DNA of 64,000 nt from the IMG/VR virus record IMGVR_UViG_3300043436_001797, positions 17,818-81,817 of that record. One strand, written 5' to 3'. This document shows positions 8,245 to 47,900 of this stretch, one piece after another. Each line of letters begins with the position of its first letter. The stretch's first letter is position 1. The position numbers and the translations under genes are program-made. The notes below the pieces were generated by a model that saw only the letters and a program-made list of their open reading frames with translations, had not been told where the DNA came from and searched no databases. The DNA is from a virus.

Positions 8245-9264
8245 ATGAGTGATACTTTTACAATTGTGCAAACTCCAGGTATTAAATCTGGACCTATTGC
8301 AATCCGTCCATTCTTTAATCAAAATGTCTCTAACATGGGACTTGAAAAGTATGGATTATCTTTATTTGAGGGAGTTTTTCATGAAGAACAACTTGCATGT
8401 ATTGAGCAGAACGGTGTGAAGCGATACATTACAGGTCTGAATGAATTTGCTCCTGAAGTTAAAATGATTAGAGACGAAGATCAGAAGAAAGCTAAAATTA
8501 ATGAGATTCGTGCTGCTGTATCTGAACTAGAAAAAGAGATGGCAGCAAATCCGATTGAAGTGTCTGATCCACATTTCTGGAGCAAAGTAAAATTATTACG
8601 CCCTGAGAATGATGATTTCTGGACCAAGATTACATTGAGGTGTGGAAACACCCCAATGTTTCTTGATCCGGTAAAAGATCCTTTTGATAGAATTAGACTT
8701 TATGCTATTGAAGCAGGTGGGTTTAGCATCGTCGCAAAGAGCTATGAGGAGGCTAAAAACAAACCTACTCCAGTTAAATTTTATTTAGATAAATACGAAG
8801 AAACCGCTGGAACTAAAACTGAAGTTAAAAAACTTCGTAACAAAGCTCTTGCTGAGCTTCAGAAGTTGTTTGATAAGAATCCAGTTAAGATGATGTACGT
8901 AGCAAAGATTGTAGACATTAATAGTGTTCAGTATAAGAAGTCTACACCAAATGATGTTATCTACGATAATATGGATATTTATATCAATGGTGAAGGTTCT
9001 GAGACGAGTCCTACAAGAGCGGCTCAAACTTTCTTAGATACCGTAAACCTTGATATGGAAACACTAAAACTAAAGTCAGTTATTAGAGATGCTAACTACT
9101 TAAGGTATATTGTTACCAAACCGGATGGATTTATTTACCATGCTTCGTCATCAACAATGCTTGGTAGAAATCCATCAGATGTTTTAGAATATCTGAAGAA
9201 TCCTTTGAATGAAGAGATCCTGAAAGATCTATTAAAGTCAACCGAAAAATACTGGAATCAATAA
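8245..9264 (+). CDS. Conserved crAss-like protein downstream of MCP, function unknown
   Basis: 339-aa ORF in the post-MCP position with a TAAACCAACAAAA leader. Confidence 0.6.
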   Translation: MSDTFTIVQTPGIKSGPIAIRPFFNQNVSNMGLEKYGLSLFEGVFHEEQLACIEQNGVKRYITGLNEFAPEVKMIRDEDQKKAKINEIRAAVSELEKEMAANPIEVSDPHFWSKVKLLRPENDDFWTKITLRCGNTPMFLDPVKDPFDRIRLYAIEAGGFSIVAKSYEEAKNKPTPVKFYLDKYEETAGTKTEVKKLRNKALAELQKLFDKNPVKMMYVAKIVDINSVQYKKSTPNDVIYDNMDIYINGEGSETSPTRAAQTFLDTVNLDMETLKLKSVIRDANYLRYIVTKPDGFIYHASSSTMLGRNPSDVLEYLKNPLNEEILKDLLKSTEKYWNQ

Positions 9265-9428
9265 TGGGAAACATGCTATATCAAGCTTCTGACAATATGA
9301 GTACTGTCAAAGGCGATAAGACTGCTAAGTACAGCAATGCTGCTACAAATCTTTCTTTAACAAATTCTCCAGACCTAACCAAATCTTTACTAAATTATAG
9401 TAAAGCAAGTAATTATGGCGGCAAGTAA
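9264..9428 (+). CDS. Small hypothetical protein (54 aa, not in ORF track)
   Basis: TAATG overlap with the upstream stop. Translates MGNMLYQASDNMSTVKGDK...NYGGK. Confidence 0.45.
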   Translation: MGNMLYQASDNMSTVKGDKTAKYSNAATNLSLTNSPDLTKSLLNYSKASNYGGK

Positions 9429-9573
9429 AAAACAAATGATTAAGCGCAAAGATGGATCCTACAGTCAACGAGGACTGTGGGATAATATCCGCGCTAACAA
9501 AGGTTCTGGTAAGAAACCTACCAAGCAAATGCTAGAACAAGAAAAGAAAATTAAATCAAAAACCAAAAAGTAA
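9415..9573 (+). CDS. Small basic protein (52 aa, not in ORF track)
   Basis: MAASKKQMIKRKDGSYSQRGLWDNIRANKGSGKKPTKQMLEQEKKIKSKTKK. Its stop overlaps the next ATG (TAATG). GLWDNI..KGSG resembles a motif of small basic phage proteins. Confidence 0.75.
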   Translation: MAASKKQMIKRKDGSYSQRGLWDNIRANKGSGKKPTKQMLEQEKKIKSKTKK

Positions 9574-9785
9574 TGGCTGCTAAAAAGTCAACCAGTAAAA
9601 AGTCTTCCCCTGTGGTATCTATGTCATCTAAAGCAGAGATGCGTAAGTGGGAGGTAGAATCTGCTATGAATACACTTCGTAGAGCAGATGAAATCCGTAA
9701 GGATGCTAAGATGATGGGTGATGTAAAGAAACTTGCACAAGAGCAAATTAAAATGTTAGGTGGTATTGCTAACCCTAAAAAGTAA
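9573..9785 (+). CDS. Small basic protein (70 aa)
   Basis: ORF track; TAATG coupling at both ends; Lys-rich. Confidence 0.75.
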   Translation: MAAKKSTSKKSSPVVSMSSKAEMRKWEVESAMNTLRRADEIRKDAKMMGDVKKLAQEQIKMLGGIANPKK

Positions 9786-10030
9786 TGGCAAAGAAAGTTA
9801 AAGTAACAGCGGGTGGTGAGAAGCATGTAGTCTATAAGAAGACTACTAAACGCGGTAAAGGAGAACCCGGTGATATTATGGTGAACCACCCTACCAAAGA
9901 TAAAGGTAAGTGGGATACCATAAACCTAACTAAGATTGGTAGAGCAAAGACAGTAGCAGAAGGTGTAGCATCCACTAAAAAGTGGCACAAGGATAACCCT
10001 GATTACAAGTACAAAAAGAAGAAAAAGTAA
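9785..10030 (+). CDS. Small basic protein (81 aa)
   Basis: ORF track; TAATG coupling; poly-Lys C-terminus. Confidence 0.75.
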   Translation: MAKKVKVTAGGEKHVVYKKTTKRGKGEPGDIMVNHPTKDKGKWDTINLTKIGRAKTVAEGVASTKKWHKDNPDYKYKKKKK

Positions 10031-10031
10031 T

Positions 10032-10280
10032 ATGGCAAAGTCACCTGCATGGCAAAGAAAAGAGGGTAAGTCACCAAGTGGTGGACTTAACGCTAAGGGT
10101 AGAGCTTCCTACAATAAGGAAACAGGAGGTAACCTTAAAGCACCACAACCTGAAGGTGGTTCTAGAAAGAAGTCATTTTGTGCAAGAATGTCCGGGATGA
10201 AAAAGAAGCTTACTTCTAGCAAAACAGCTAATGATCCAGATAGCAGGATTAATAAAGCTTTGCGTAAGTGGAAATGTTAA
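10032..10280 (+). CDS. Small basic protein, DUF6321-like
   Basis: AWQRKEGK..SGGLNAKGRASY...NLKAP...RKKSFCARM...DPDSRINKALRKWKC matches the phage DUF6321 pattern as I recall it. Confidence 0.75.
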   Translation: MAKSPAWQRKEGKSPSGGLNAKGRASYNKETGGNLKAPQPEGGSRKKSFCARMSGMKKKLTSSKTANDPDSRINKALRKWKC

Positions 10281-10297
10281 TGTAAATTAGTAATACT

Positions 10298-10513
10298 ATG
10301 GCAAAGAAATCAAAGTCTCCATTACCAAAAAAACTACTTGGTGGAGGTGGTAAAGAAGACAAGTATAGCGGATTAGGATTTAATCCTGCTGCTCCTGGAA
10401 TGTTTAATATGGGTAAAAGGACAGCAGCTCTTGGAGCTTATGTGAGTAAGAACGGTATACCCGGAATGAAAAAAGGTGGTTCTACTAAATCTAAAAAAAG
10501 AAATGAAAAGTAA
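10298..10513 (+). CDS. Small basic protein with KKGG motifs (71 aa)
   Basis: ORF track; LPKKLLGG and MKKGG motifs. Confidence 0.65.
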   Translation: MAKKSKSPLPKKLLGGGGKEDKYSGLGFNPAAPGMFNMGKRTAALGAYVSKNGIPGMKKGGSTKSKKRNEK

Positions 10514-10682
10514 ATGCATGCAGTGCGGTGGCGCTAAAAAAATGAAAGCAGGTGGTGCTAGTGAATCCTTTAAAAAACTTGCACCTCCTTATGATAAAGC
10601 TACCTATGCTGATAAAATTGCTGGCGCTAAAAAGAATGCCGGTACAATGAAAAAAGGTGGTGCTGTAAAAAAGAAGAAGTAA
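10503..10682 (+). CDS. Small basic protein with KKGG motifs
   Basis: The track starts it at GTG 10476; ATG 10503 (MKSKCMQCGGAKKMKAGG...MKKGGAVKKKK) overlapping the previous stop is more plausible. Confidence 0.6.
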   Translation: MKSKCMQCGGAKKMKAGGASESFKKLAPPYDKATYADKIAGAKKNAGTMKKGGAVKKKK

Positions 10683-10993
10683 TGAAAAAGAAGCTTAAAA
10701 AATATCAGTCACAGGGTGAAGTTAAACGCAAGGGGTACATGACTCCTGTTGCTCCAAAAGATACCACTGGCTACGGAAGTGCAGCTGACAGAATAAGAAA
10801 AGCGCTTGAAAAAAGAGACCCAGGTTTTTATAAAACTCCTGAAAGTGTAGGAGGAAAATCAGGAAATATTGATCCTAAGTTTGCGATAGATCCTAAAAAA
10901 GTAGGTGCTAAGTCTGGTGATATTGATCCAGGATTTAACAAGAGTGTGCCTAAGAAAAAGTTAGGTGGCACAAATAAAAAGAAAAAGAAGTAA
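10682..10993 (+). CDS. Small basic protein (103 aa) with KKYQ and KKLGG motifs
   Basis: TAATG coupling; internal duplication KSGNIDPKF / KSGDIDPGF. Confidence 0.7.
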   Translation: MKKKLKKYQSQGEVKRKGYMTPVAPKDTTGYGSAADRIRKALEKRDPGFYKTPESVGGKSGNIDPKFAIDPKKVGAKSGDIDPGFNKSVPKKKLGGTNKKKKK

Positions 10994-11157
10994 TGGCAAA
11001 AGATAAAAAGTGGATTCAAAGCGCTACTGCTAGCATCAAGCGTAGAGGTACAGAGGGAGTCTGCACCGGATCTAAATTTGGTAGCTCATCTTGTCCCGCT
11101 GGTAGCAAGAGATACAATCTTGCTAAGACTTTTAGAAAGATGGCTAAGAAAAAGTAA
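10993..11157 (+). CDS. Small basic protein (54 aa, not in ORF track)
   Basis: TAATG overlap. MAKDKKWIQSATASIKRRGTEGVCTGSKFGSSSCPAGSKRYNLAKTFRKMAKKK; KWIQ...LAKT.RK resembles small basic phage proteins. Confidence 0.75.
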   Translation: MAKDKKWIQSATASIKRRGTEGVCTGSKFGSSSCPAGSKRYNLAKTFRKMAKKK

Positions 11158-11178
11158 TCTATAAATTCTATATATAAA

Positions 11179-11373
11179 ATGAAAAAGTATATGACAGGTG
11201 GTGTAGCTAATCCTAATACAAAAGCTACAGTTCAGAAAGTAGCTGGTTCAAAAGGTGCAGGTACTACTAAATCTACCAAAGCTACTGTAGATAAAAAAGC
11301 AACTGGTAGAACAGGTGGTGGTAACAAACCCGCTTCTGTTGAGCCTAAGAGCAAGAAGAAAAACGTTAAGTAA
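11179..11373 (+). CDS. Small basic protein (64 aa)
   Basis: MKKYMTGG start; repeated TKATV; TAATG coupling to the next gene. Confidence 0.7.
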   Translation: MKKYMTGGVANPNTKATVQKVAGSKGAGTTKSTKATVDKKATGRTGGGNKPASVEPKSKKKNVK

Positions 11374-12077: not shown

Positions 12078-12079
12078 TT

Positions 12080-12529: not shown

Positions 12530-12574
12530 TTTGGAAGTTCTAAAAGGATTTCCTATATTAACTATATATTTTTG
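12530..12574 (+). promoter_or_regulatory. Candidate promoter upstream of the 12602 gene
   Basis: TTTG-N20-TATATTA (12530-12560) and TATTTTTG (12567-12574, TAnnTTTG) in an intergenic gap. Confidence 0.5.
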
Positions 12575-12601
12575 TTTGTAACCCTTTAATTTTTTAAAAC
12601 A

Positions 12602-36284: not shown

Positions 36285-39200
36285 AAGTTTCTAAGACAGG
36301 TTATAAGAAAAACTCTAAGGATAAGAACGAACCATCATTGCTTATCCCCTCTAATAGAATTACTATGAAGGGTGTAGAGTTTCCCGTGTACGGAATAGAT
36401 GATACAGGATACTCTCAAATGATGTATCCTGGTTTAGATTACTCGTTTCCAGGTAGTTATGTTTATGAACTTCCTATGGCAAAAGAAGGTGGATACATAC
36501 TTCCGGGTAGATATAAAAATCCAGAAGGTAACTGGTTGAATAAATATCAGTCAGATAAAAAATCAGGTCAGGTAAAAAATTACTGGACATGGAATCCTAA
36601 AGCTACTTCCGAAAGAGATAGTATTCAAAATATTGCCGGCAATATATTAAACTATGAAATTCTAAGAGGTGGTCCAGGGGGTAGCCCGCTCACTTACTAC
36701 AGTGATCCTGAGTATATGAATACCTTGATGAATGATATATATCCGCAAGTTAAAAAAATGATGCCTAATGCTACTCCCGTAGAAATGGGGGAAGCTATGG
36801 ATCTTATTTTTAATAGTGGTTGGGATAAGAGCAATAAAAAAATATTAGTAGATCCTAGAGCATATGCTATACAAGAATACTATAGAGTACATGATAAATC
36901 CAAACTAGATAAAGAAGGAAACTGGGCAGGTAGAAAAGCTACCCCCGGTACATTTGATAGTGAGTATGCTAACACTGTTGGTAAACTTTCTGAAAATGAA
37001 AGAAGGATTATGATGAATAAAGGGAGAGACTGGTTTTATCAACATAGAGCTCCTAAAGGATCAACCTGGGATTTAAAAACGCAAGGTGCTTATCCAGACT
37101 ATGGAGCTACCTGGTATGGAAGAATATGGAATACTAATGATTACGCTCCATTTAATCCGAATAATCCTAAATTTATTTATCCGTATAAAACAGGCGGTGA
37201 AAAATGGTTAGATAAGTATCAAGGTAAAACTAGCGCTAGTGAGGTAAGTTCTTTAAAAGAAGAATCATATAGAACACCTTGGTGGAATCCTGAAAATTCA
37301 TCTGAATGGAATCCAGCATGGACATCAGATCCAATTAGACAGAATGCACAAGCAGAGTTTCCGGGTACATATGTATTACCTACTGTAGAGATTACAGATG
37401 AAAAACCGCAAAGGTTTAAAGATCAAGAAACTGCTGCCGTAGTTAGACAAGTTCTTCCAGATAGAACTATCTTATCAGCATCAGATGATCCAGAGAAAAC
37501 ATATGAGGATTTTATAAATAGTTCTCGTAACTATCGCAATGCAAAATTAAATGATACTCTAATAGATATAACTGATAAACCAATGGGATGGTTTACTTTT
37601 AATACAATCCCAGGAGAGAAATACACAGATATATTAGGAAATAACTATATAGAAGTAAATAGGGGTGGAACAGGTAAACCAGAAGACTATGCTAAAAACT
37701 GGAAAACCAGAATGCAGGATCCTAAAGATACTTTTAGAAATAGTGATTATGCTGAAGACGCTGGAAGTTATTACCATAGTAAAGATATTCCAGCATTCTA
37801 TGGTATAGAAAATAATAAGTTTAAAGTTGGAAACCCTGGAGATTTTAAAGATGATACAGTAATTGTTCCAGTAAGAAATAGCACAACTCCATATAGTAAA
37901 GTCGAAGTTGAAAAAGGACTGTTTAAAGATAATTTATATACATATGATAAAGACGGAAATAAAATATGGAACTTACGGAATAAACAAAAGTTTTTAGTAC
38001 ATTCTCCGGTAACAAATAGAACAATCTTTATATCTAAGGACAGTTACGAAAATCAAAATTCCAAAGAAAGTTATGCCACAACAAAAAAATCACTAGATGA
38101 TTTTTCAAAAAATAATCCAGATGCTTATATCATATCTCTAGATGAAGGTAGATTTCGTGCCTACATGAATTCACCAGAAGGTTTAGATGATGAAAGTTTT
38201 AAGACCTGGAATGCATTTTCTGGTACAGTACTACATAATTATTTAGAAGGACTCGGTAAGGAAGCAGTAGATCATGGTCCCGGTACATCGGGTTCTCCTT
38301 TATATTCTCCTGTAGGTGATGAAAGATATGGATATAATCTAGGTATTCTAAAACAAAAACATGGAGGATGGCTAGATAAATATCAATCTAAGACTACATC
38401 TGGTTCTGTTTCTAAATCTGGTCCAAGAATTGAAAACTTACCGCTTCAGAAGGTTGATAACAAACTAGAAATAGCATACGATGGAAGCACGGTATACCTA
38501 CGTAAAATAGGTGAAGATAAGTTTACTACACTTAGTCCAGAAAAGTCTAAAGCTTTTATTCAGAAGTATCAAGAGCATATACCACCTAGTTATTCTAAGG
38601 TTGAAGAACAGAAGAAAAAGCAAGCAGCTTATAATGCAAAGGTAGCTGCTGAAAAGAAAGAGATGGATGAGCTTCTTAAGTACACTCCATTAAAACTTAC
38701 TAAAGAAGAAAAGGATAGAGTTCTAAAAGAGTCTAAAGATGCGCGAGCTGAACTAGCTGAGAAGAGTTGGTTAGACACAGCATGGGATGCTACTAAAAGT
38801 GCATATGAATCTTTACCAGATGTTTCAGATTTTACTAACGCGGTTAAAGGTGCATATGAGTCTTTGCCTGATGCAGAAAATGTAATTAAGTTGATGAATT
38901 TATCAAACGAGGCAACAAAACTAGCAGCAGCTTATGCTTGGAATTATAAGATACCTGAAAATGATATACCTGGTTTAAGAAGTTTCGGTGAGCTTTCACC
39001 AAAAGAAATATATCAAAGTTTTGAAAATAGATTTATAGAAAAAAACTTTGGTGAGGATACACCAACAGGTGAGTCAAATATTGAAGAGCTTAATCTGATG
39101 TCAGAAGAAGATGTAACTTCTGGAACTTCAGATATGGAACAGTTAAATAAAAGTAGAGCTAAGTACGGACCACAGCGATTACCCGCAAGAAGAGATTCTA

Positions 39201-42200
39201 GAGGTAATATGTTACCATCATATCAACCTATTGGTGGAAATGATTCACTAGCTAGATTTAGCTACACATTTAACAATGATATTCTAGGTGCTGATACTTT
39301 ACCTCCTACTCACTTTGTTACACCTAAAGTAAAAGAACTTACAGGAAATCCATCTAGACCAAGAAAATGGGAGAACGCATTTGCTGTAGGTGATTTCTTG
39401 AGAGATGCTGATATAACTGAAAATCAGTTTTATCACCCAGATAAATATTATGTGGGTACTTCTCTTAGCGCACTTCGTAATAGTGACCTAGGTATAAAAA
39501 GCAATAAACTCATAAGCGCTAGTAATCAACTACTTAATGATCCTGAAAAATACTGGGCGGTGTATAAATGGGATCCTGAAAATCCTGCAGCAGCATGGGT
39601 TAGGTATATGAAAACTAATGAGATTAAGTCTAAGAAAGATCAGTTAGAAAAACAAGGATGGCATCTTGATATGCCTGTATCAGGTCAACATAGATTTGAT
39701 GATGTTGATTGGGAAGGCAAAGGTTCAGACACAGGTTATAAAGCAGATTCAGAATGGGTACCGCTTAAAAAAGGTGCTAAAAACATAAAGAGTCAAAAAG
39801 ACGTAAATCATACTTATATACCACAGGGAACTAAAAAAGGTCAAGATAAAACATCCTATAATTTATTCTCTGGTGGATCTATAACTTTTGTATGGACTGA
39901 TCCTGAGACTAATGAAAAACTTGCGTCAACAGTAGCCGGTTCAGTTTCTGACATGAAACAGTATGGTGAAAAACTTAAAAAAGATTATGGATTAAAAGAA
40001 GGTGATCTTGATATCATATACCATGATACAGGATCCTACTCCGCTAAACCAGCAGCTAAAAATGGTACATTATACTACGATCAATGGAAAGACTTTAACG
40101 CATATAACAAAGGCTATTCCGGCGCAGCACTGATAGTACCTACACAAAATTGGTTAGAGAACTGGACACCTAATAAAAAAGAAGGAGGACAATTAGATAA
40201 GTACCAATCTGAGAATACAGGTGCTATAAAAAAAGGATGGCATCAAAAAGTTTATAATGATCCTATTGCATTTGCAAAAGCTAATAAAGCTTTTAACGAT
40301 AGTCTTAATCTTAGCAAAAGAAGTTACGAGCTTCTTAAGGATATAGCTCCTAACAGCTCATATAAAAGTAATATTCCCTATGAAGATGTACATTGGACAG
40401 CTGATGGACCAGGTGGTTATTTTATAGATAATGTTGACTTTGGTAGGCAGTTTTTAGGTTTAAATTACTTAACCGATACTAATTTTAGAATACCTGGTAC
40501 AAAAGAGCAACTTATCTTAGAAGAAGCTTTTTCAAAAAGAATAAAACCAATAGGTTTTAATACAACTGACGTTCCAGTACCTATTTATAAACTACCAACT
40601 GAAGAACCTGTGTATGAAGAACTTAAAAACTTACCTTATCTAGATGCAAAATTGGAGCGTCCTGATTTTAACTTAGATATAGGTAAACCACCGGTAAAGT
40701 CTCAGGGTATTAGAATTAGACCTATGATGACTGCTGATCAAGCTACTAGTACTGGTCAGTATCAATCCGGTAAGTATATGTGGGATCCAGAAACAAAATC
40801 CTGGAAAGTCAAAATGCTAAGTCCTGAAACTCAACAAGAAAACAGAAAAGAGGTTAGAATAGGGATTAAAAAAAATGGTGGATGGCTAGATAAATACCAA
40901 GATGGTAAAGAAGTAAATAAACCTGTTAGCGCAACATGGTCGGATGAGTTTGGTACTTACATGCTTCCCGAAGTAACTGTAAAACCATCCATTAGTCCTG
41001 AAGCAACTCGAGCAATACTGAATAGAGAAGCGGGTATGTCTATTTCGCCTGCTCCGTCTGCGGTTGATAGAAGAGTAGCACAAACTCAGTACATGTTATC
41101 TAACCCACTTGATGCGCTTGGTCATTACTCTAGATATGGTTATGTTCCGCAAGGAAACCTGGGTAACTATGGTATGAGAGAAAAATCAAGTCCTGTTGGT
41201 CAATTACTAATGGACTTCAATCCATACAACTGGGCAAACGCTGCATACAGAGCTGCTATAAGAGGTGGGGATCCTGATACGTATACAACAGTTCCTGGTG
41301 CTATTAATATGGGTGCAGATTTAGCTGAAGCACTTCCTGTTATTTCTGAACTAGGTCCTTTGCTTAAAGGTGCTAAATCTGCGACAGGTGAAGCAGGTAA
41401 ATATCTTACAGCAAAAACTCCTTTAAAGTATACATACAGATTAAATCCCGAGGCTAGAGGTAGTGTATTCAAACCCTGGGATAACAGCATGGGATACCGT
41501 GTGGTTAATCAAGAAGGTTATGATGATGCCGTAAAAAGTTTTCTGGTAAGATCAAATCCAAAAGGAGATAATACATTATTTTCAAGACCTACAGGTTTTC
41601 CTTCTTTTGCTAAAGGAAAACCTAGCAAGAACTTTTTTAAGACGGATAATACACCTCATTATATAATGGAAACAGATATTCCACTGTATGCAAGAGGGGA
41701 AGCAAATCCAGTTACAGGGATACCGATTAAAAGTAGTCATGGAGCAGCAAGACCTATTGATCCTATAACCGGTGAAACCCTAACTTCATTTCCAATAGAG
41801 GATCTAAACGCTATATATAGCGCACAACCCCATTGGTTAAAAGGTTATCAGCGTGTTTGGCAATCACCTAAAAATATTCAAGAATTAGGTAATTTAACAT
41901 TAGGAAAAAACATTGCTACATCGGGAGCCTTTAATAGAGGTGTCTATGAGTTGCCAGATTATCCTGGATATTTGTTAAAATATGAAGATACGGATTTAGT
42001 TAGAAATATGGCTTTGCGTGATATTGATGATCTAAATTTTGCCGATCTTCAAATGAATCTAAACTCTTCAAATGTAGGAAAAGTAATCAAACACTTTAAA
42101 AAACAAACTCATCCTATTGATCCAATGCTTGCAGGTAGAGATATGGAAGGATATCTGCTGCGCAGGATGCAAGGTAAACCACTAGCTACACTACAATTAG

Positions 42201-43216
42201 ATAGATTAAAAGATATTCCAGAAAGTGCTTTTATTCAGTATGCAAAAGATTATGATAATTTAGTTCAACAGAAACTAGCAATGGATAATTACGGGCATAA
42301 TGTACTTTATGATCCAGAAGATGAAGTGTTTAAATTTATAGATTTATCTCCGGAGGCTAACTCTAATATGAGTGATTTTTGGAGTGAACATGTGATTGAT
42401 AATATAAACTCTAAAATGCCTAGAGAAAAACAACTAACAGGTATTAAAGGAGCTATTCTTAACCAAATAGATAATAATGTAAACATTAATATTGAAAAAG
42501 CTATGAAGGATCTTCCTGAAGATGCTGATTTGGAATATGCTGACAAATTAAGAATTGGGATGGAGTTATTGGGTCAAGCTAAAAAGAATAGAGTAAAAAG
42601 AGAATTAGAAAAAGCAGGTTATAAAAAACTAGGTGGGTGGCTTGATAAATATCAAATAAAAGGTGAAGTAACTCCTCCTGCTAATCTCCCTTGGATTAAT
42701 GGTGCAAGCATACCTCAAAAGCAATCGGTAGAGCAACAAGTTAATGCTTGGTTAGGTGAACCAATGAAAAGAGCTGCAGAGGAAGCGGAGAGAAGAGCTG
42801 AACAAGGGGAAGATGCAGGTGACTCTTTTAGACACTCTAATGCAGGTAGATTAACTCGTGAAGAGCTAGAAAAAAAGTTTCCTGAACTTATGTTGTATAC
42901 AGGTATTCCACAAGTTGCATCATTCTTAGGAGCTACAGCTTTAGGTATTGGTCATGAGGTAGTAGCACCTAATAGATCTCCGGATTATTCTTGGTGGGAT
43001 ACAGCTAGAGAAGCAGGAGAAGACATTATCAACAATACCATAGGAGCAACGGGTTTATTTTCAGAAGAAGATCTTTATAACATGTATCTGAACAACCAAT
43101 TACCTGATGGATATGGTAAAGGAAATATGTACTTCAAACAGAAAAAAGGAGGAGAAATGTCCCCAAGTATGGGATATTTTAACTATATTGGTGGATATAG
43201 GGGTATGTTGCCTTAA
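36281..43216 (+). CDS. Modular virion cargo polyprotein (2311 aa) with effector-like domains separated by GGWLDKYQ linkers
   Basis: ATGA overlap with the muzzle gene. Six linker copies. Lysozyme-like, ART-like, kinase-like and DUF6973-like motifs in separate modules. Cargo role inferred from position. Confidence 0.7.
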   Translation: MKVSKTGYKKNSKDKNEPSLLIPSNRITMKGVEFPVYGIDDTGYSQMMYPGLDYSFPGSYVYELPMAKEGGYILPGRYKNPEGNWLNKYQSDKKSGQVKNYWTWNPKATSERDSIQNIAGNILNYEILRGGPGGSPLTYYSDPEYMNTLMNDIYPQVKKMMPNATPVEMGEAMDLIFNSGWDKSNKKILVDPRAYAIQEYYRVHDKSKLDKEGNWAGRKATPGTFDSEYANTVGKLSENERRIMMNKGRDWFYQHRAPKGSTWDLKTQGAYPDYGATWYGRIWNTNDYAPFNPNNPKFIYPYKTGGEKWLDKYQGKTSASEVSSLKEESYRTPWWNPENSSEWNPAWTSDPIRQNAQAEFPGTYVLPTVEITDEKPQRFKDQETAAVVRQVLPDRTILSASDDPEKTYEDFINSSRNYRNAKLNDTLIDITDKPMGWFTFNTIPGEKYTDILGNNYIEVNRGGTGKPEDYAKNWKTRMQDPKDTFRNSDYAEDAGSYYHSKDIPAFYGIENNKFKVGNPGDFKDDTVIVPVRNSTTPYSKVEVEKGLFKDNLYTYDKDGNKIWNLRNKQKFLVHSPVTNRTIFISKDSYENQNSKESYATTKKSLDDFSKNNPDAYIISLDEGRFRAYMNSPEGLDDESFKTWNAFSGTVLHNYLEGLGKEAVDHGPGTSGSPLYSPVGDERYGYNLGILKQKHGGWLDKYQSKTTSGSVSKSGPRIENLPLQKVDNKLEIAYDGSTVYLRKIGEDKFTTLSPEKSKAFIQKYQEHIPPSYSKVEEQKKKQAAYNAKVAAEKKEMDELLKYTPLKLTKEEKDRVLKESKDARAELAEKSWLDTAWDATKSAYESLPDVSDFTNAVKGAYESLPDAENVIKLMNLSNEATKLAAAYAWNYKIPENDIPGLRSFGELSPKEIYQSFENRFIEKNFGEDTPTGESNIEELNLMSEEDVTSGTSDMEQLNKSRAKYGPQRLPARRDSRGNMLPSYQPIGGNDSLARFSYTFNNDILGADTLPPTHFVTPKVKELTGNPSRPRKWENAFAVGDFLRDADITENQFYHPDKYYVGTSLSALRNSDLGIKSNKLISASNQLLNDPEKYWAVYKWDPENPAAAWVRYMKTNEIKSKKDQLEKQGWHLDMPVSGQHRFDDVDWEGKGSDTGYKADSEWVPLKKGAKNIKSQKDVNHTYIPQGTKKGQDKTSYNLFSGGSITFVWTDPETNEKLASTVAGSVSDMKQYGEKLKKDYGLKEGDLDIIYHDTGSYSAKPAAKNGTLYYDQWKDFNAYNKGYSGAALIVPTQNWLENWTPNKKEGGQLDKYQSENTGAIKKGWHQKVYNDPIAFAKANKAFNDSLNLSKRSYELLKDIAPNSSYKSNIPYEDVHWTADGPGGYFIDNVDFGRQFLGLNYLTDTNFRIPGTKEQLILEEAFSKRIKPIGFNTTDVPVPIYKLPTEEPVYEELKNLPYLDAKLERPDFNLDIGKPPVKSQGIRIRPMMTADQATSTGQYQSGKYMWDPETKSWKVKMLSPETQQENRKEVRIGIKKNGGWLDKYQDGKEVNKPVSATWSDEFGTYMLPEVTVKPSISPEATRAILNREAGMSISPAPSAVDRRVAQTQYMLSNPLDALGHYSRYGYVPQGNLGNYGMREKSSPVGQLLMDFNPYNWANAAYRAAIRGGDPDTYTTVPGAINMGADLAEALPVISELGPLLKGAKSATGEAGKYLTAKTPLKYTYRLNPEARGSVFKPWDNSMGYRVVNQEGYDDAVKSFLVRSNPKGDNTLFSRPTGFPSFAKGKPSKNFFKTDNTPHYIMETDIPLYARGEANPVTGIPIKSSHGAARPIDPITGETLTSFPIEDLNAIYSAQPHWLKGYQRVWQSPKNIQELGNLTLGKNIATSGAFNRGVYELPDYPGYLLKYEDTDLVRNMALRDIDDLNFADLQMNLNSSNVGKVIKHFKKQTHPIDPMLAGRDMEGYLLRRMQGKPLATLQLDRLKDIPESAFIQYAKDYDNLVQQKLAMDNYGHNVLYDPEDEVFKFIDLSPEANSNMSDFWSEHVIDNINSKMPREKQLTGIKGAILNQIDNNVNINIEKAMKDLPEDADLEYADKLRIGMELLGQAKKNRVKRELEKAGYKKLGGWLDKYQIKGEVTPPANLPWINGASIPQKQSVEQQVNAWLGEPMKRAAEEAERRAEQGEDAGDSFRHSNAGRLTREELEKKFPELMLYTGIPQVASFLGATALGIGHEVVAPNRSPDYSWWDTAREAGEDIINNTIGATGLFSEEDLYNMYLNNQLPDGYGKGNMYFKQKKGGEMSPSMGYFNYIGGYRGMLP
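36527..42655 (+). repeat. Six dispersed copies of the (K-x-GG)-W-L-D-K-Y-Q linker
   Basis: 36527 GNWLNKYQ; 37187 KTGGEKWLDKYQ; 38357 KHGGWLDKYQ; 40178 KEGGQLDKYQ; 40871 KNGGWLDKYQ; 42626 KLGGWLDKYQ. Confidence 0.92.
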
Positions 43217-43220
43217 TGAT

Positions 43221-43228
43221 TATCTTTG
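43221..43228 (+). promoter_or_regulatory. Bacteroidota-type -7 element
   Basis: TATCTTTG (TAnnTTTG) in the 31-nt gap before the 43248 gene; no clear -33 TTTG at canonical spacing. Confidence 0.35.
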
Positions 43229-43247
43229 ACTTACAAATAATTCTAGT

Positions 43248-44897
43248 ATGAAAAAAGAATTTTTAAAAATGGCTGGTGTAAAAACAGAGCAAGAGTTCTA
43301 TCGTAAGTATCCTAATGAAAAGGATTTCTTTGAAGCTCATCCAGATGCTTTGAAAAAACTAGCTCGTGGTGGTGAGGCATATCCACAAACTGCTACTATG
43401 GATAACTTCTTTAGTTACGGGGTACCAGTTCCACCTACTTACTATGCACATGGTGGTGCATTCCCTATGGCACAATCAGAGGAACAGTTCTTCTCACCTT
43501 TCTATGGAAACGTACCTAACCCATACAACAAAGCTATGGGTGGAAGCTCTGAAGCGTATCCTCAGTCAATGTCTTTCCCATATGGAAACACTGGCAGAAG
43601 CACACACTTTATGATGGAAGACGGTGGGGATATGCCAGAAGAACAAACTCTACCAAAGATGGGAGTCAATGGTAAACTCCTAGAGTTTGTAGGTACTGTT
43701 AAAAATACAGCTGCTAATAAACTAAACAGCAATCTTGCTAAATACGGTAAGGTAAAGAACCCAGAGCAGTATGAGTTTGAGAAAGCTAAATGGGGAGGTA
43801 ATCTAAAAGAATATCAGACTAAGGAAACTGCAGGTGGTATTGACGATGTTGAATTGGTTGCTAAAAAAGGTCCAATTTTTGAACCGCTGAATCTTCCTAA
43901 AGTTGATACTAATTCTGATGTGCCAGGAACCGCTAATTACTATGGAGAATATTCTCAAGGATATGGATCACCCTCTTTTACAAATTGTTTTCCTGGAAAT
44001 CCTAACTGCAATCAAGTATACGGTCAACTTCCTCCAGAATACTATAATGATATAGACTACCTGCGCGGTAGAAGAAGACCGTATAGGGACTTTGATATCC
44101 GCGGTAAAGGTATGTTTGGTAAATATAGATCGACTGGTTGGTTGAAAGATGAGTATGGTTTAGAAGGACTGAGACAAATGGGGATGACAGACATGCAGGA
44201 AAGTAATCCTAAATGGTGGCAGTTGTTAAAGCGTCCTACTAAAACATACATTTTTGACAGACAATATCAGCAACAGGGTCCTAACGGGGAGTACAAATAC
44301 AATCCAGTAAAAATTTACGATAAAGATGGAATGCCTGATCATAAAGCTCAAAACGCTTATGAGAATATGCTTAAACCAGGAAATGAAAAGGATATGGGAT
44401 TCTTTGCTAGGATGTTTCATAAATCAGGTAATGTAACTGGTCAAGGAAGAGATGTAATGCCAGGAACACCTTCAGATCCTAATGCTGAGATGTCTCCTCA
44501 AATGACAAGTGCATTTGATTATAAAGGATATAATCCAAATTACTCTGAAGCAAGAAATCAGATTTTCCAAAATAAAAGACAAAAAATAGGAAAGCAGCTA
44601 GATAAACTTTATCAAAAAAGAGCCGATATGGAGGATATGGGTCTTACTATTTCTGATAAAGATGAGCGTAAAATGAAAAGACTAGGTAATAGATTTAACC
44701 GCAAAGGAACTGGTAAAGGAGTAAACTATAGTTTTGATACTTATGAAGAACCTACACCTGCTCCTGGATTTGCTTATGGTGGATATACAACATATGCAAA
44801 AGGTGGCTCATACAACGCAGGAGATGTCGTAGATATGACTCCTGAAGAGTTGCAGAGATTTATTGAAATGGGCGGTCAAGTAGAATTCTTAGACTAA
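43248..44897 (+). CDS. Putative virion cargo protein with multiple xxGG motifs
   Basis: LARGG, YAHGG, KAMGG, MEDGG, AKWGGNLKEYQ, FAYGG, YAKGG, EMGG; internal repeats GG(x)EAYPQ. Confidence 0.65.
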   Translation: MKKEFLKMAGVKTEQEFYRKYPNEKDFFEAHPDALKKLARGGEAYPQTATMDNFFSYGVPVPPTYYAHGGAFPMAQSEEQFFSPFYGNVPNPYNKAMGGSSEAYPQSMSFPYGNTGRSTHFMMEDGGDMPEEQTLPKMGVNGKLLEFVGTVKNTAANKLNSNLAKYGKVKNPEQYEFEKAKWGGNLKEYQTKETAGGIDDVELVAKKGPIFEPLNLPKVDTNSDVPGTANYYGEYSQGYGSPSFTNCFPGNPNCNQVYGQLPPEYYNDIDYLRGRRRPYRDFDIRGKGMFGKYRSTGWLKDEYGLEGLRQMGMTDMQESNPKWWQLLKRPTKTYIFDRQYQQQGPNGEYKYNPVKIYDKDGMPDHKAQNAYENMLKPGNEKDMGFFARMFHKSGNVTGQGRDVMPGTPSDPNAEMSPQMTSAFDYKGYNPNYSEARNQIFQNKRQKIGKQLDKLYQKRADMEDMGLTISDKDERKMKRLGNRFNRKGTGKGVNYSFDTYEEPTPAPGFAYGGYTTYAKGGSYNAGDVVDMTPEELQRFIEMGGQVEFLD

Positions 44898-44902
44898 TTA
44901 CA

Positions 44903-47900
44903 ATGAAAGTTAGAATCACAAAAGCTCCTAAACTTAGAAAGTATCAAACGGATGTTACACCTGGTCAAGTTATGCCTGCTGCAACACCGTCAGACTATAA
45001 CAACTATAGAGATGCCAGCTGGTTTCAACCATGGGAAGGAGTAGATATGAGTCAGTTTCCCAATGGCATAGATCCAATGGGAGGAGAGTTTACTACGGGT
45101 AAACAGAGATCTCTATATTATACCATAAGAGATGGGAAACAAGAACTCTACCCACCACATCAGAAAGTTGCTCATGCAATGGATCACAGGGGAATCTCAG
45201 GTATACGTTTTTATCAACGTCCTGGTGATGATGGAGCTGGCAGCAATGGTGGTGATGCAGGATATGGTGACGATGCTGAAATGGGAGATTCTTATATGGC
45301 AGATCCTTATGCAGAAAAGAATGCGTATAGGGCTAAAATGCGGGATGAGTACAATCAATTAAGTACAGAACCGCAAGAAGGTTTTGAGACATGGTTGCAT
45401 AATAAGGGAGATTATCTAAATTATTCGGGGTTATCCGGTGATTCAAATCAAACAAGTTTAGAGCAGAAAGATCAAGGTCTTACTGATTATAGAACTGGTA
45501 TGCCGGATTTTAAGTCTGGAAATGGTAGTGGTGCTGGTAGTGGTTTTGGTAATTCTGGTGGCACCGGTTCTACTGGTGGTGCTGGTTCTGGTCCTGCTGG
45601 TCCTACTGGTACTGGTTCTAGTAGCGGTGGTGGTGGTGATTCAGGATCTGTTAATACTATTGGTGGAGGAGGAGGGGGAGGTGATTTGAAATCTGCTGGT
45701 ATGCCGCAAGATCAAGGTTTTCACGGAGTTGTAAAAGAAAAAGGTCGGTCAAAGCTCGGTAAGTTCATTAGAGGTTTAGGACCTCAAAAGGGAATGGATG
45801 CTTACATAAACAGACAAAATGCTAAAGACTTTGTTACGGGATTTGCTGAGTATAAAGGTAAGGTTGATATGGATAAGGAAGCTGTCAAAGGTTTCCATAT
45901 GTCGCAACCTATTGCCGCATCTACCCAGGGTACCTTTGATCCCAACAGCATGAACAACTTTACTCCTGGTATGCTAAATACAGTACCGTCTACAGGAGAT
46001 TTTGCAATGGCACCTAATATGCCTATGGGTGCATATGGTGGTCAGTTTATGGCATATGGTGGTAGAGTGTTTAATCAGGTAGCACCAAATGCTTTACCCG
46101 ATAGAACATCTGAACCTAGAATAGCAGTATCAAACACACTGCAACCAGTACCTAGAGAGCTTGCTAATATCGAAGCAGAGAAAGATGAGACTATCTACTT
46201 CTTAAACAATGGTGGTCTTCCTGCTCATTATAAAATTGGTGGTCAACCTCACAGCAAGGGAGGAACTCCTTTGAATGTTCCCGAAGATAGTTTTGTATTT
46301 AGTAAAGCGCTGAAGATTAAGGATAAAAGACTGTTTCCTTATTTCGATGTAACTAAACCTACCAGCTTCTCAGACATTGCTAAGAAGTATGACATAAATA
46401 AATTTAGAAAGATACTAGCTGACCCGGATACAGACAAGCTGCAAAGAGAAACTGCAGAGAAAATGATTGCTAACTACAACCTTAAGTTGGGTATGTTAGC
46501 TTTAGCACAAGAATCTACAAAAGGATTTCCACAAGGTTTACCTATGATAGCTGCACCGTTTACTGCGGTTAATGCTATTGATCCGGAAATGATTTTACCT
46601 ACGCCACCTCAGTCTGCTGAGATGCCGGAAGAACAATTTATGGAACAAGAGATGCCCGCTTATAAATTCGGAGGAGCTATGAGAGTTAGAATTAAATCTT
46701 TACCTAGATATCAGTCAGATCTTGCTGGTGCTAGTGTTGCTGATGATATGATGTCAGATGCTGGTTTATCTGACCAGACTTACGTACAAACCCCACCAGC
46801 AAATATACCCCCACCTCCACCTGTTGCTGTTGTTACACCTGCTACACCAGCAGCACCTCCTGCAGCAGCAACTGCAGCTACTCCTCCACCTACTATTGTG
46901 GTGAATGGTGTTACGATAGATACAAAGACTAATAAACCTGTAGCTAAGTCTGCTCCCGCTGCTAGTGGTAAGAAAGCAGCTAAAAGTGCTGCGGGTACAT
47001 TTAATTTTGATGTAGATGTTATGGAAGGTAATCCTGACTTTTGGCAGGGTTATAATGATTTGGTCGCAGCTGGTACTATTAAACCAGAACTAGCTATAGG
47101 TTTTGAAGATGCTAGTGTTCGTCAGCGAGAGAGTAAGCAAGGTCGTAGACCAGGTACTGCAAATATATATGGTGATAGAGATATTCATAAAGGTTCTCTT
47201 TATGAGGACTTTAAGAAAAGACAGGCGTGGTATTTTCAAAATAAGAAAAACTGGGATCCTGAAAATAAAGCAGATGTAGAAGATTTTCAAAGAGAGTATT
47301 GTAAAAAAGCTGCAGAGTATGGTATGAAGGGTTGTTACTTTAATACCAAGGATGTAAAAGACTCTAAAGGTAGAATTATACAAGGGACTACGTTTGACGG
47401 TCTGTTTGGTGAGCACACTTTTAATGCTCCAGGATTTAATAAAGCTGAAGCAAAACCAGAACCTCAACCACAACCCCAACCAGAACCAGAAAAAAAACCA
47501 GAACCTATCAAGGTTAATCCTTTAGATATACCAGAGGATTATTCTCGTAGAAGCGGTTATTTCCCTCAGGATCTTATAAACCTTTCTGCAGCTTTAGCTC
47601 AAAGAATTACTGTACCTGATACATGGTATGCTCCTTTACAGTTTAAAGGTGTAGATCCTGCGTATTTGGTACCAGACTATAGTCCAATTATGGAAGCTGC
47701 TAATATTAGCACTCAGGGTGTTAATGCTTATGGTTCTCGTCAAAGTGCAGATGCTTCACTTGCTCTTATTCAAGGTAAATCAGCAAGACCTGCAGCTGAA
47801 CATAATCTAGCAGTTGCTAATGCTAATGCTGGTATTTACAACAATGCTCAGCAGATTAACGCACAGATAGCAAATCAAAATGCTATGTACAATAATCAGT

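What the first reader, a model, noticed from the sequence alone, without database searches (positions are those of the whole stretch)
9264..46740. Shared xxGG / L-x-KYQ...G(E/Q/S)V signal links cargo proteins and tiny basic proteins
Seen: the linker variant recurs outside the polyprotein: LKKYQSQGEV (10682 ORF; compare LDKYQIKGEV at 42641), AKWGGNLKEYQTK (about 43790), LRKYQTDVTPGQV (about 44933), YKFGG...LPRYQSDLAGASV (46661). Short (M/Y/F)-(K/A)-x-GG motifs are frequent in the 10298, 10503, 10682, 11179, 43248 and 44903 proteins, but I did not notice them in portal or ring proteins. Inference: one targeting or processing code marks proteins destined for the capsid interior, comparable in role to the T4 capsid targeting sequence or a head-protease site.
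Basis: partly seen in the sequence, partly recalled or inferred. Interest (0 to 1): 0.78.

Follow-up and report, generated by a model that had tools for sequence, protein, structure and literature searches.

The report
Shared junction tag in crAss-phage cargo
A short conserved peptide set between glycine pairs marks the ends and seams of swappable modules in proteins that an uncultured crAss-like phage probably packs and injects, and a lysine-rich version recurs in its tiny basic proteins; what reads the tag is still unknown.

Summary
The window is the structural half of an uncultured crAss-like phage. L-x-[KRE]-Y-Q occurs 9 times in the three genes behind the muzzle gene (0.11 expected) and once at the N-terminus of a 103-aa basic ORF. 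[MYF][KA]xGG is enriched in both sets and absent from the portal, capsid, ring, muzzle, fibre and giant ORFs.

It is a local form of a wider junction tag, KKK-N-GG-WLDKYQ-[DE]-GG-x-V. The tag is disordered and its codons vary freely. It stands at internal seams, right after the start Met and right before the stop of the post-muzzle protein family (3,871 clusters). Module exchange between two near-identical phages breaks exactly at the tag.

Basic-ORF arrays of 61 related loci carry MKKGG-x-VKKYQ-x-GG forms: 11 full tags against 0.01 expected.

The three giant cargo-type ORFs lack the tag, and neither packaging nor cutting is shown. I favour a tethered docking handle. A protease site and a bare hinge remain open.

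Other agents of this scan noted the same kind of seam on other genomes. My paper searches found no description.

The parts
36281..43216 (+). 2311-aa modular protein (P0001) directly behind the muzzle gene. Seven modules are separated by six junction tags.
   Evidence: Translation; module map; no Pfam or PHROG family for the whole protein or its modules. It stands where crAss001 has C1.
36536..36550 (+). Junction tag 1: (EGN)W-LNKYQ-SDKKSGQV, behind the N-terminal small beta domain.
   Evidence: domain alignment A1
37208..37222 (+). Junction tag 2: YKTGGEKW-LDKYQ-GKTSASEV
38372..38386 (+). Junction tag 3: KHGGW-LDKYQ-SKTTSGSV. This is the left crossover point against relative G001.
40193..40207 (+). 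Junction tag 4: KKEGGQ-LDKYQ-SENTGAI
40886..40900 (+). Junction tag 5: KKNGGW-LDKYQ-DGKEV. This is the right crossover point against relative G001.
42641..42655 (+). Junction tag 6: KKLGGW-LDKYQ-IKGEV
43248..44897 (+). 549-aa protein (P0002). Its N-terminus MKKEFLKMAGVK.. is shared with the gene that follows the tag-bearing gene in 29 of 36 related loci. It has three [MYF][KA]xGG sites.
43803..43817 (+). Tag variant AKWGGN-LKEYQ-TKETAGG. The G001 orthologue has LKKYQ at the same place.
44903..48313 (+). 1136-aa protein (P0003). Residues about 431-540 resemble the portal-binding domain of crAss001 gp45 only weakly.
   Evidence: hhalign probability 11%, inconclusive
44933..44947 (+). N-terminal tag MKVRITKAPK-LRKYQ-TDVTPGQV. 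G001 has VKKYQ here.
46661..46714 (+). Internal bipartite unit YKFGG-AMRVRIKS-LPRYQ-SDLAGASV. The place is kept in the G001, G002 and G003 orthologues (LPRYQ, MSTYQVGGQV, LPKYQDRGEL).
9264..11373 (+). Array of ten tightly packed tiny ORFs (52-103 aa; K+R 0.24-0.33 in nine of them, 0.11 in the first). GG and hydrophobic-x-x-GG are enriched. ORF 10032-10280 is DUF6321.
   Evidence: The arrays differ between close relatives.
10694..10708 (+). N-terminal tag MKKK-LKKYQ-SQGEV of the 103-aa basic ORF 10682-10993.
   Evidence: G001 has MAKKLKKFQPGG on a different tiny ORF.
10466..10661 (+). Three [MYF][KA]xGG sites of the tiny ORFs: GMKKGG-STKSKK, KMKAGG-ASESF and TMKKGG-AVKKKK.
31023..36284 (+). Muzzle gene (context). 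It fixes the 'cargo position' of the next genes and carries no tag.
   Evidence: Pfam crAss_MUZ 1.7e-27; a homologue lies upstream of the tag gene in 33 of 36 loci.
5053..6276 (+). 407-aa protein between portal and capsid genes, helical and partly disordered (scaffold-like). It holds an invariant GHLLEKYQ (LEKYQ at 6034-6048). This is a possible partner or mimic and is untested.
   Evidence: (invariant in 61 sequences)
59348..59362 (+). HEAFH in the giant ORF 57308-64000, the only HExxH in the window. It is a candidate metal-protease site of a packaged protein; the fold is not confirmed.
   Evidence: (HE..H kept in 112 of 112 homologues)

Best explanation
The motif is a short linear peptide held on glycine-glycine tethers. 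Its full form is basic residues, N-GG, the core W-L-D-K-Y-Q, then [DE]-GG-x-V. In this phage the form is GG-W-L-D-K-Y-Q...G-x-V or L-x-K/R-Y-Q. In the small basic proteins it is M-K-K-GG-x-V-K-K-Y-Q-x-GG. It marks every seam and both chain ends of exchangeable modules in the post-muzzle protein family, and it recurs in the tiny lysine-rich proteins encoded beside the capsid gene. Shown: the motif is real, it is selected as a peptide, it sits in disordered sequence, it is confined to these protein sets, and it is the point where modules are swapped. Inferred: the core is a docking handle. Each module or small protein uses it to bind one common partner of the assembling or loaded particle (scaffold-like protein, portal, tail barrel or capsid inner face). 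This would let unrelated modules be recruited or held whether they are encoded alone or fused. The GG pairs serve only as tethers to whatever is attached on that side. Later cutting beside the handle, as with the T4 capsid targeting sequence, is possible but not needed for this reading.
For: (1) Peptide-level selection: 31 distinct DNA contexts of GGWLDKYQ use 24 different 24-nt cores, with free synonymous choice at G, L, D, K and Y. (2) The core alone is kept at chain ends. Of the 150 best family representatives, 144 have the motif ending within the last 8 residues (mostly ...GGWLDKYQ/N then stop) and 56 also have it within the first 12 residues (M-x-WLDKY-x-GG). The left GG is missing after the start Met and the right GG is missing before the stop. 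That fits a displayed peptide with tethers only where something is attached. (3) Disorder: in the AF2 model of the minimal 147-aa family member, residues about 25-92 form a beta domain with pLDDT above 90, and the tail 97-147 with the tag is at about 50. The six tags of P0001 lie at the 76th-100th percentile for disorder-promoting residues. (4) Specificity: the tag is enriched in the cargo trio and the tiny ORFs and absent from the portal, capsid, ring, muzzle, fibre and giant ORFs. Across 36 loci there are 87 hits in the tag gene, 0 upstream and 3 downstream. (5) Same unit in basic proteins of relatives: 11 h-x-K-Y/F-Q-x-GG against 0.01 expected in 320 ORFs of 61 loci. Five of the 13 core hits lie within the first nine residues and the others follow (M)KKGG. 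(6) In cultured crAss001, C1 (gp45) has NAFGG-WLNTQ-GG at 425-435. This is the N-edge of the segment 425-552 that the cryo-EM paper resolves on the portal wing (PMC10172136, passages read) and of Pfam crAss_CARG1 (424-555). MFAYGG at 558-563 lies just past its C-edge. A degenerate tag is therefore ordered in a bound state there. (7) Precedent read in passages: the 10-residue T4 CTS loads diverse basic internal proteins (PMC9026906).
Against: No partner is identified, and no binding test could be run. The AF2 monomer does not dock the tail on its own domain. The three giant ORFs at the place of the packaged RNA-polymerase proteins lack the tag, so it cannot be the general entry ticket. In most relatives it is limited to a single gene, and only 16 of 61 basic-ORF arrays have the KYQ core. 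Several copies in one chain are not needed for mere recruitment. That the proteins are in the virion at all is inferred from gene order: Pfam C1 and C2 families were not found in this genome. I could not inspect the crAss001 coordinates, so contact of its GGWL stretch with the portal is not shown.
Confidence: 0.42

Rival explanations
1. Protease site. The tagged proteins are polyproteins, and the small basic proteins are precursors. A phage enzyme cuts beside the core, most simply after WLDKY-Q/N. The enzyme could be the conserved HExxH domain carried in the giant ORF 57308. Fused and separately encoded modules would then end up as the same products.
For: Natural gene ends coincide with the tag: 144 of 150 representatives stop right after the core, and a few start with M-GG... 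just behind it. N-terminal copies look like short removable leaders. Module number varies freely (147, 527, 1711 and 2311 aa in phages with 85-99% identical capsid proteins), as expected if linkage does not matter. HE..H is invariant in 112 of 112 homologues of the giant ORF, down to 26% identity. N4 vRNAP carries a conserved HExxH too (PMC13434306, passage read). Self-processing of phage polyvalent proteins by zincin-like domains has been proposed (PMC5512222, passages read). Many GG sites in tiny ORFs sit 5-10 residues from an end.
Against: No protease family was found by Pfam in 35 window ORFs or in 90 of 116 ORFs of relative G003. The HExxH region has no Pfam or PDB sequence match, and its fold was not tested. 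The gene at the usual protease/scaffold place is an all-helical, partly disordered protein. Terminal tags would release only 6-9 residues, so their strict conservation needs a function of the core itself. The 147-aa relative has tags with no module behind them. The crAss001 authors treat gp45 as one chain bridging tail and capsid and found peptides in between; this does not exclude cuts. [MYF][KA]xGG puts the bulky residue five positions before the bond after GG, which is not the register I recall for adenovirus protease sites.
Confidence: 0.28
2. Hinge and recombination seam only. The glycine pairs give flexible joints that let a string of modules thread through the tail. The conserved coding stretch serves as micro-homology for in-frame module exchange. 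Nothing binds or cuts the core.
For: Homology between the window and G001 (capsid protein 99% identical) switches on exactly at the TGG of WLDKYQ at window 38369. It switches off about 15 nt after the core at 40917. All seams of 31 family members carry the tag. The context is disordered and glycine-flanked. The crAss001 paper argues that cargo must partly unfold to pass the tail.
Against: Codons of the core vary (24 cores in 31 contexts), so the constraint is on the peptide, and 18-24 variable bases are poor homology arms (inference). A hinge needs no W-L-D-K-Y-Q, and it needs nothing right after the start Met or right before the stop. The same core with a different, basic left half recurs in unrelated tiny proteins.
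Confidence: 0.2
3. Chance or composition: lysine- and glycine-rich, low-complexity proteins throw up such strings without function.
For: The tiny ORFs are 24-33% K+R and up to 18% G. The single KYQ hit in this window's tiny ORFs reaches only 12 of 2000 shuffles.
Against: Composition-preserving shuffles never reach the observed counts in the cargo trio or in 320 ORFs of relatives. The motif is conserved at orthologous places. The family counts 3,871 clusters at E<=0.001.
Confidence: 0.01

Closest known systems
Cargo protein C1 (gp45) of Bacteroides phage crAss001 (Bayfield et al. 2023, PMC10172136; record MH675552)
   Same: It is the gene directly behind the large gene that follows ring protein R1. 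It is rich in GG (21 against 13.2) and in bulky-x-x-GG (4 against 0.78). It carries GG-WLNTQ-GG at the N-edge and MFAYGG just past the C-edge of its portal-bound domain (paper passages). gp46, gp47, gp49, gp50, the muzzle-position gene and R1 are not enriched, which is the same split as in the window.
   Different: The core is only W-L and lacks K-Y-Q. The protein has one fixed architecture with a membrane helix. I found no array of tiny basic ORFs beside its capsid gene. Pfam crAss_CARG1 and crAss_CARGO2 are not detected in the window's genome. The passages I read do not mention the motif.
Polyvalent proteins of phages and conjugative elements (Iyer, Burroughs, Anand, de Souza, Aravind 2017, PMC5512222)
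   Same: These are long chains of unrelated, exchangeable modules that are delivered with the DNA. Relatives of P0001 hold an SLT lysozyme-type domain and an ADP-ribosyltransferase domain. Processing by a zincin-like domain has been proposed. The HExxH region of the giant ORF scores nearest to LPD23, LPD1 and ART-PolyVal clusters in the protein atlas (0.82-0.91, a lead only).
   Different: In that paper the words 'linker', 'glycine' and 'crAss' occur 0 times and 'cleavage site' once. No conserved junction peptide is described in the passages I read. No Pfam domain of that set was found in P0001, P0002 or P0003.
T4 capsid targeting sequence on internal proteins IPI-III and Alt (review PMC9026906, passages read)
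   Same: A short shared peptide on otherwise unrelated, variable, often basic proteins loads them into the head. The review itself suggests this is a way to take up diverse proteins. N-terminal copies here (MKKKLKKYQ.., MKKYQ-x-GG) have the same placement.
   Different: The T4 CTS is N-terminal only, binds the scaffolding core and is removed by the gp21 head protease. Here most copies are internal or C-terminal, no head protease was found, and the phage is crAss-type, not T4-type.
Encapsulin cargo-loading peptides, and demarcation motifs of polymorphic toxins (VENN of CdiA, the DPxGL-type motif of Rhs). All are recalled from memory and were not checked with any call.
   Same: They work alike. 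The first are short terminal peptides on flexible linkers that dock cargo to the inner face of an HK97-fold shell. The second are conserved peptides at the border where variable modules are exchanged.
   Different: There is no sequence likeness and no shared family. The comparison is by mode of action only.

Membership tests
Crassvirales virion module | Crass-type major capsid protein, ring proteins 1 and 2, and muzzle protein in one co-linear block | tested here: met
   Pfam Crass_capsid 5.6e-31, CrAss_Ring_2 1.1e-20, CrAss_Ring_1 4.1e-13, crAss_MUZ 1.7e-27, all above the curated cut-offs. Terminase and portal by PHROGs.
crAss001 cargo protein 1 (Pfam PF25725 crAss_CARG1) | Match to the portal-binding domain model above 27 bits | tested here: not met
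   No match at E<=1 in the whole 81.8-kb record and none in the Pfam scans. The P0003 profile against gp45 424-555 gave hhalign probability 11%, E 0.0027. Distant kinship of P0003 therefore stays open.
crAss001 cargo protein 2 (Pfam PF25712 crAss_CARGO2) | Match to the family model above 27 bits | tested here: not met
   No match at E<=1. The tool warns that nothing rang in its control genomes either, so the test is weak.
Cargo proteins in the sense of the crAss001 paper | Physical presence inside the virion (mass spectrometry or density) | not testable with these tools
   Only the gene order behind the muzzle gene speaks for it.
Phage polyvalent proteins (PMC5512222) | Two or more unrelated effector or structural domains in one chain, varying between relatives | tested here: met
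   P0001 has seven tag-delimited modules. Only modules 4-5 are shared with G001, at about 81% identity. The family ranges from 147 to 2311 aa. SLT and ADP-ribosyltransferase domains occur in relatives.
Phage polyvalent proteins (PMC5512222) | Zincin-like processing peptidase domain in the chain or beside it | tested here: inconclusive
   An invariant HE..H is present in the giant ORF 57308 and in 112 of 112 homologues. There is no Pfam or PDB sequence match, no fold test was made, and the atlas result is only a lead.
T4-type CTS plus head-protease system | N-terminal propeptide of about 10 residues on internal proteins | tested here: inconclusive
   Two of 10 L.[KRE]YQ tags in the motif-bearing proteins of the window are N-terminal (ORFs 10682 and 44903). 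Five of 13 core hits in relatives' basic ORFs lie within the first nine residues. Removal was not tested.
T4-type CTS plus head-protease system | Prohead protease gene | tested here: not met
   No protease family in 35 window ORFs or in 90 of 116 ORFs of G003. The 407-aa protein at that position is helical and disordered.
Double-glycine sites of adenain-type (clan CE) virus proteases (consensus recalled, not checked) | A clan CE cysteine protease gene, and a bulky residue at P4 with G at P2 | tested here: not met
   No such Pfam family was found. In [MYF][KA]xGG the bulky residue lies five places before the bond after GG. The likeness is in mode only.

The most novel reading that the evidence does not exclude
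The tag is a scaffold-mimicking loading address. The scaffold-like 407-aa protein carries an invariant LLEKYQ in its most conserved stretch. Cargo modules (WLDKYQ) and lysine-rich DNA-counterion proteins (VKKYQ) would show the same K-Y-Q peptide to the same site of the growing procapsid. Any module that acquires the tag would then be loaded. After loading, the HExxH enzyme carried in the giant cargo protein would cut at the glycine flanks and free effectors and core proteins. This would be a phage counterpart of adenovirus core maturation, with a plug-in cassette system for injected effectors.
Probability: 0.08. Interest if true: 0.85.

Novelty: new variant of a known kind. Interest (0 to 1): 0.62.

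Why it matters
crAss-like phages are among the most abundant viruses known, and how they choose, store and inject their protein cargo is open. A single portable peptide marks every exchangeable module and also the small basic proteins. That gives a concrete, mutable handle for testing cargo loading and processing, and for loading foreign proteins into such particles. It also explains how near-identical phages can carry very different injected proteins. The tag-delimited family is large (3,871 clusters at 50% identity), and the ten representatives I looked up are unnamed or called hypothetical protein. The tag can therefore be used to find and split a big block of viral dark matter into modules.

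Tried and rejected
**Searches for relatives**
- Cultured relatives: tblastn of P0001 and P0002 against 50,697 phage records found nothing.
- A 303-aa family member hit only 64 residues of a Leptolyngbya phage.
- The search for related loci with P0001 alone found no relative.

**Domain and fold assignment**
- Pfam at E<=1 on the seven modules of P0001, on P0002, P0003 and on the 407-aa and 339-aa proteins gave only sub-threshold noise. PHROGs gave nothing for them.
- Fold of the conserved beta domain: Foldseek against PDB had no hit at E<=0.001. The best VIA-align Z was 7.3, within what the tool calls the common range. No fold is assigned.
- The 407-aa model had no Foldseek hit.
- The HExxH region had no Pfam or PDB sequence match.

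**Ideas I dropped**
- The muzzle protein might end in a half-tag. It does not; it ends ...SQFIxxPAQISYK.
- The conserved KFYLDK of the 339-aa protein might be a tag. Dropped, because the Y-Q part varies freely in 64 homologues.
- The [FY]xA[IL][TS]S seam reported by another agent for giant cargo proteins has 0 hits in eight large proteins here.
- K and Q as an isopeptide pair. Dropped, because Q is E, N or D in many copies and K is sometimes N or Q.

**Complex prediction**
- The job paired the scaffold-like protein with the 147-aa minimal tag protein, using alignments A5 and A1.
- It was never accepted because the queue was full (some searches were not sent on). No result of any kind exists.

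**Paper searches**
- The motif strings found 2 unrelated papers.
- 'crAss-like' with polyprotein, proteolytic and virion found 0 papers.
- 'crAss-like' with ejection proteins, linker, conserved motif and modular listed 4 papers, none of them on this.

Full report
**What the window is**

The window is the last 64 kb of an 81.8-kb IMG/VR virus record rated 68% complete. All large genes lie on the + strand. Pfam and PHROGs name these genes:
- terminase (3-2183) and portal (2185-4947);
- crass-type major capsid protein (6306-7934);
- ring protein 2 (29432-30106) and ring protein 1 (30106-31020);
- muzzle protein (31023-36284).

Behind the muzzle gene come P0001 (2311 aa), P0002 (549 aa) and P0003 (1136 aa), then three giant ORFs. 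None of these six has a Pfam hit above its curated cut-off (the ORF at 51753 has only a sub-threshold PD-(D/E)XK match) and none has a PHROG family. In crAss001 the genes at these places are cargo proteins C1 and C2 and the RNA-polymerase-related proteins found in virions. The 'cargo' label here therefore rests on gene order. Pfam crAss_CARG1 and crAss_CARGO2 were not found in this genome.

Between the capsid-side genes and a 234-aa structural gene lie ten tightly packed tiny ORFs (9264-11373, 52-103 aa). Nine of them are 24-33% K+R. One of the ten is DUF6321.

Shuffling residues within each protein gave these counts:

| Pattern | Cargo trio | Ten tiny ORFs | Three giant ORFs | Other 19 proteins |
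|---|---|---|---|---|
| L.[KRE]YQ | 9 against 0.11 (0 of 2000) | 1 against 0.01 (12 of 2000) | 0 against 0.13 | 1 against 0.22 |
| [MYF][KA].GG | 7 against 0.62 | 3 against 0.23 | 0 against 0.35 | 0 against 0.73 |

The single hit among the other 19 proteins is LEKYQ in the 407-aa gene. Because the patterns were picked on this sequence, I tested other DNA, described below.

**The motif is a local form of a widespread tag**

A degenerate DNA pattern for GGWLDKYQ hit 36 IMG/VR contigs.
- In 33 of the 36, a muzzle homologue lies just upstream of the tag-bearing gene.
- In 29 of the 36, the next gene starts like P0002.
- One hit (L026) lies in a head-completion protein and looks unrelated.

From 66 distinct instances in 31 proteins I derived the internal consensus K-K-K-N-G-G-W-L-D-K-Y-Q-[DE]-G-G-x-V. 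Of the 47 internal instances, G-G precedes the core in 40-41, L is present in 47, Y in 43, Q in 30 and E in 10, and G-G follows in 29-31.

Codons vary freely: 24 different 24-nt cores occur in 31 contexts. The constraint is therefore on the peptide.

**Where the tag stands**

Every seam between modules of the post-muzzle proteins carries the tag, with one to six copies (seven tag-like matches in the window's own protein, one of them not a seam) per chain. It also stands at the chain ends.
- 19 of the 36 proteins end in ...GGWLDKYQ(D) followed by stop.
- Many begin M-x(0-8)-WLDKY-x-GG.

I built a profile of the conserved end module, which is a small beta domain, then LDQLTNFTNYN, then the tag. 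Searched against 1.84 billion representatives, it found 3,871 clusters at E<=0.001, 2,560 at E<=1e-10 and 517 at E<=1e-30. Among the best 150:
- 144 have the motif ending within their last 8 residues, and 56 also have it within the first 12;
- there are 327 motifs in all, 260 of them preceded by GG.

The profile contains the C-terminal tag, so the figure of 144 is partly built in.

Other N-terminal pieces that precede the first tag are a roughly 45-residue MAKKLT...FGAIAGG segment and a small CxCG...CHxCG zinc-ribbon-like segment. Of the ten representatives I looked up, four are called 'hypothetical protein' and the other six have no name.

**The tag is a disordered peptide**

In the AF2 model of the minimal 147-aa member (relative G003), a beta domain spans about residues 25-92 with pLDDT above 90. 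The tail 97-147, which holds the tag, has pLDDT near 50. Fold searches did not place the domain. The six tags of P0001 lie at the 76th to 100th percentile for disorder-promoting residues.

**Modules are exchanged at the tag**

Three relatives have capsid proteins 99%, 88% and 85% identical to the window's. Their post-muzzle proteins are 1711, 527 and 147 aa long, against 2311 aa here. Against the 99% relative, DNA homology inside the gene is limited to window 38369-40917 at 82.7% identity. It starts exactly at the TGG of WLDKYQ and ends about 15 nt after another copy of the core.

**The link to the tiny basic proteins**

The arrays differ even between close relatives. G001 has a tiny ORF that starts MAKKLKKFQPGG. 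Many others hold M/Y-x-x-GG near an end.

Using the conserved 339-aa neighbour gene I fetched 80 of at least 530 related loci. In 61 of the 80 the array could be delimited; the other 19 lacked the downstream marker gene and were dropped. The 320 distinct ORF products gave these counts, none reached by any of 500 shuffles:
- [MYF][KA].GG: 191 against 8.98;
- MKKGG: 42 against 0.73;
- h.[KRE][YF]Q: 13 against 1.61;
- h.[KRE][YF]Q.GG: 11 against 0.01.

Instances read MKKGG-A-VKKYQ-DGG, MKKYQ-KGG at the N-terminus, and IKKYQSKTTSGQT. The last can be compared with WLDKYQSKTTSGSV in P0001.

The basic proteins thus use the same bipartite unit with a lysine-rich left half. The spread is uneven, though: 59 of 61 arrays have an xxGG site, but only 16 of 61 have a KYQ core.

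**What the tag is not**

- It is not in the portal, capsid, ring, muzzle or fibre proteins, nor in the three giant ORFs.
- Across the 36 loci there are 87 hits in the tag gene, 0 in about 48,000 residues of upstream genes and 3 in about 46,000 residues downstream.
- A single code for all internal proteins is therefore not supported.

**Is there a protease?**

Pfam found none in 35 window ORFs or in 90 of 116 ORFs of the 93%-complete relative.

The 407-aa gene between the portal and capsid genes models as a disordered N-terminal third followed by long helices. It has no structural match. It is scaffold-like by place and shape, which is an inference.

The only HExxH in the window is in ORF 57308. 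It is invariant in 112 of 112 homologues. It has no family or PDB sequence match. The protein atlas places it nearest to polyvalent-protein clusters, which is a lead only. N4's packaged polymerase also has a conserved HExxH (PMC13434306, one passage read).

**Comparison with crAss001**

gp45 (C1) is enriched in GG and in bulky-x-x-GG, whereas gp46, gp47, gp49, gp50, the gene before it and R1 are not. It has NAFGG-WLNTQ-GG at 425-435 and MFAYGG at 558-563. These two sites bracket the Pfam CARG1 domain (424-555). They also bracket the segment 425-552 that the paper resolves on the portal wing (passages read).

In that paper's text the words 'cleav', 'proteoly' and 'scaffold' do not occur. I did not see its extended data tables or figures.

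**Reading**

Three mechanisms fit.

I favour a tethered docking handle (0.42). The core is conserved as a peptide even at the two chain ends, where there is nothing to hinge and almost nothing to cut off. The glycine pairs appear only on the side where something is attached.

A cutting site (0.28) fits the match between natural gene ends and tag ends, and it fits the invariant HExxH. It lacks a recognised protease, and it does not by itself explain the terminal copies.

A bare hinge and recombination seam (0.20) fits the crossover points. It does not fit the free codon choice or the terminal copies.

The readings are not exclusive. The T4 capsid targeting sequence both docks and is removed (PMC9026906, passages read).

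**Earlier notes of this scan**

After I had formed this reading, look-ups showed that other agents had described the same kind of Gly-Gly seam in cargo proteins of other crAss-like genomes. One of those cases included a small basic protein. They likewise found no sign of cutting. Their claims concern other DNA. I tested the equivalent claims only on this window and its relatives.

**Novelty**

My searches of the paper library found no description of the motif. The two closest papers do not mention it in the passages I read. It is a new variant of known kinds: cargo or polyvalent proteins, and targeting or processing peptides.

Noticed in passing
window 5053-6276 (LEKYQ at 6034-6048): The 407-aa protein between the portal and capsid genes keeps GHLLEKYQ invariant in 61 homologues of 53-87% identity, inside its most conserved stretch. 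The AF2 model shows residues 1-103 disordered and the rest long helices. It is scaffold-like and stands at the same place as crAss001 gp31.
   Followed up: partly
window 57308-64000 (HEAFH at 59348-59362): The giant ORF is cut by the record end. Its homologues are about 3,400 aa long and some carry AlkB-like or DUF1768 domains. HE..H is invariant in 112 of 112 homologues. The atlas places the region nearest to 'large polyvalent protein' clusters.
   Followed up: partly
window 8245-9264: The 339-aa gene after the capsid gene stands where crAss001 has gp33. It has at least 530 relatives in IMG/VR and an invariant KFYLDK. The residues after that stretch vary, so it is probably not a tag.
   Followed up: yes
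window 10032-10280: This tiny basic ORF is DUF6321 (3.7e-23). It matches the C-terminal 80 residues of eight PHROG families whose profile lengths run from 99 to 928. In other phages it is therefore a terminal module of longer proteins.
   Followed up: no
L003, L019 and many of P0006-P0152 (N-termini): Many family members start with a roughly 35-residue CxCG...CHxCG zinc-ribbon-like piece, or with a roughly 45-residue MAKKLT..LTxKQxxFFGAIAGG piece. Each is followed directly by GGWLDKYQ-x-GG.
   Followed up: no
L025:5998-11658 (-) and L014:6001-7914 (-): One 1887-aa family member holds an ADP-ribosyltransferase domain (Pfam 1.7e-09, residues 329-493) that ends just before a tag. Another member holds an SLT lytic transglycosylase domain. 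The modules therefore include likely effectors and wall-cutting enzymes.
   Followed up: no
L005, L009, L014, L016, L017 and others, upstream of the tag gene: In the larger clade the muzzle region is two genes. The first is 900-1650 aa. The second is a 288-aa gene that ends ...SQFIxxPAQISYK and overlaps the start of the tag gene.
   Followed up: no
window 43248-43600; G002 orthologue: P0002 and its orthologues carry three to four repeats of bulky-x-GG-x(1-4)-A/V-Y/F-P-Q near the N-terminus (for example ARGGEAYPQ and AMGGSSEAYPQ). This is a second short motif of unknown role.
   Followed up: no
G004 (L015), about 3450-4307 of the locus: A different 38.7-kb phage fragment has no detectable homologue of this capsid protein. 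It nevertheless has two tiny basic ORFs, 76% and 59% identical to window ORFs 9415 and 10993, right beside a 1129-aa tag-bearing protein.
   Followed up: no
window 21011-28720: A 2569-aa ORF has a Fib_succ_major domain and only 2% K+R. It is probably a fibre or receptor-binding protein. It has many GG doublets (26) but no tag.
   Followed up: no
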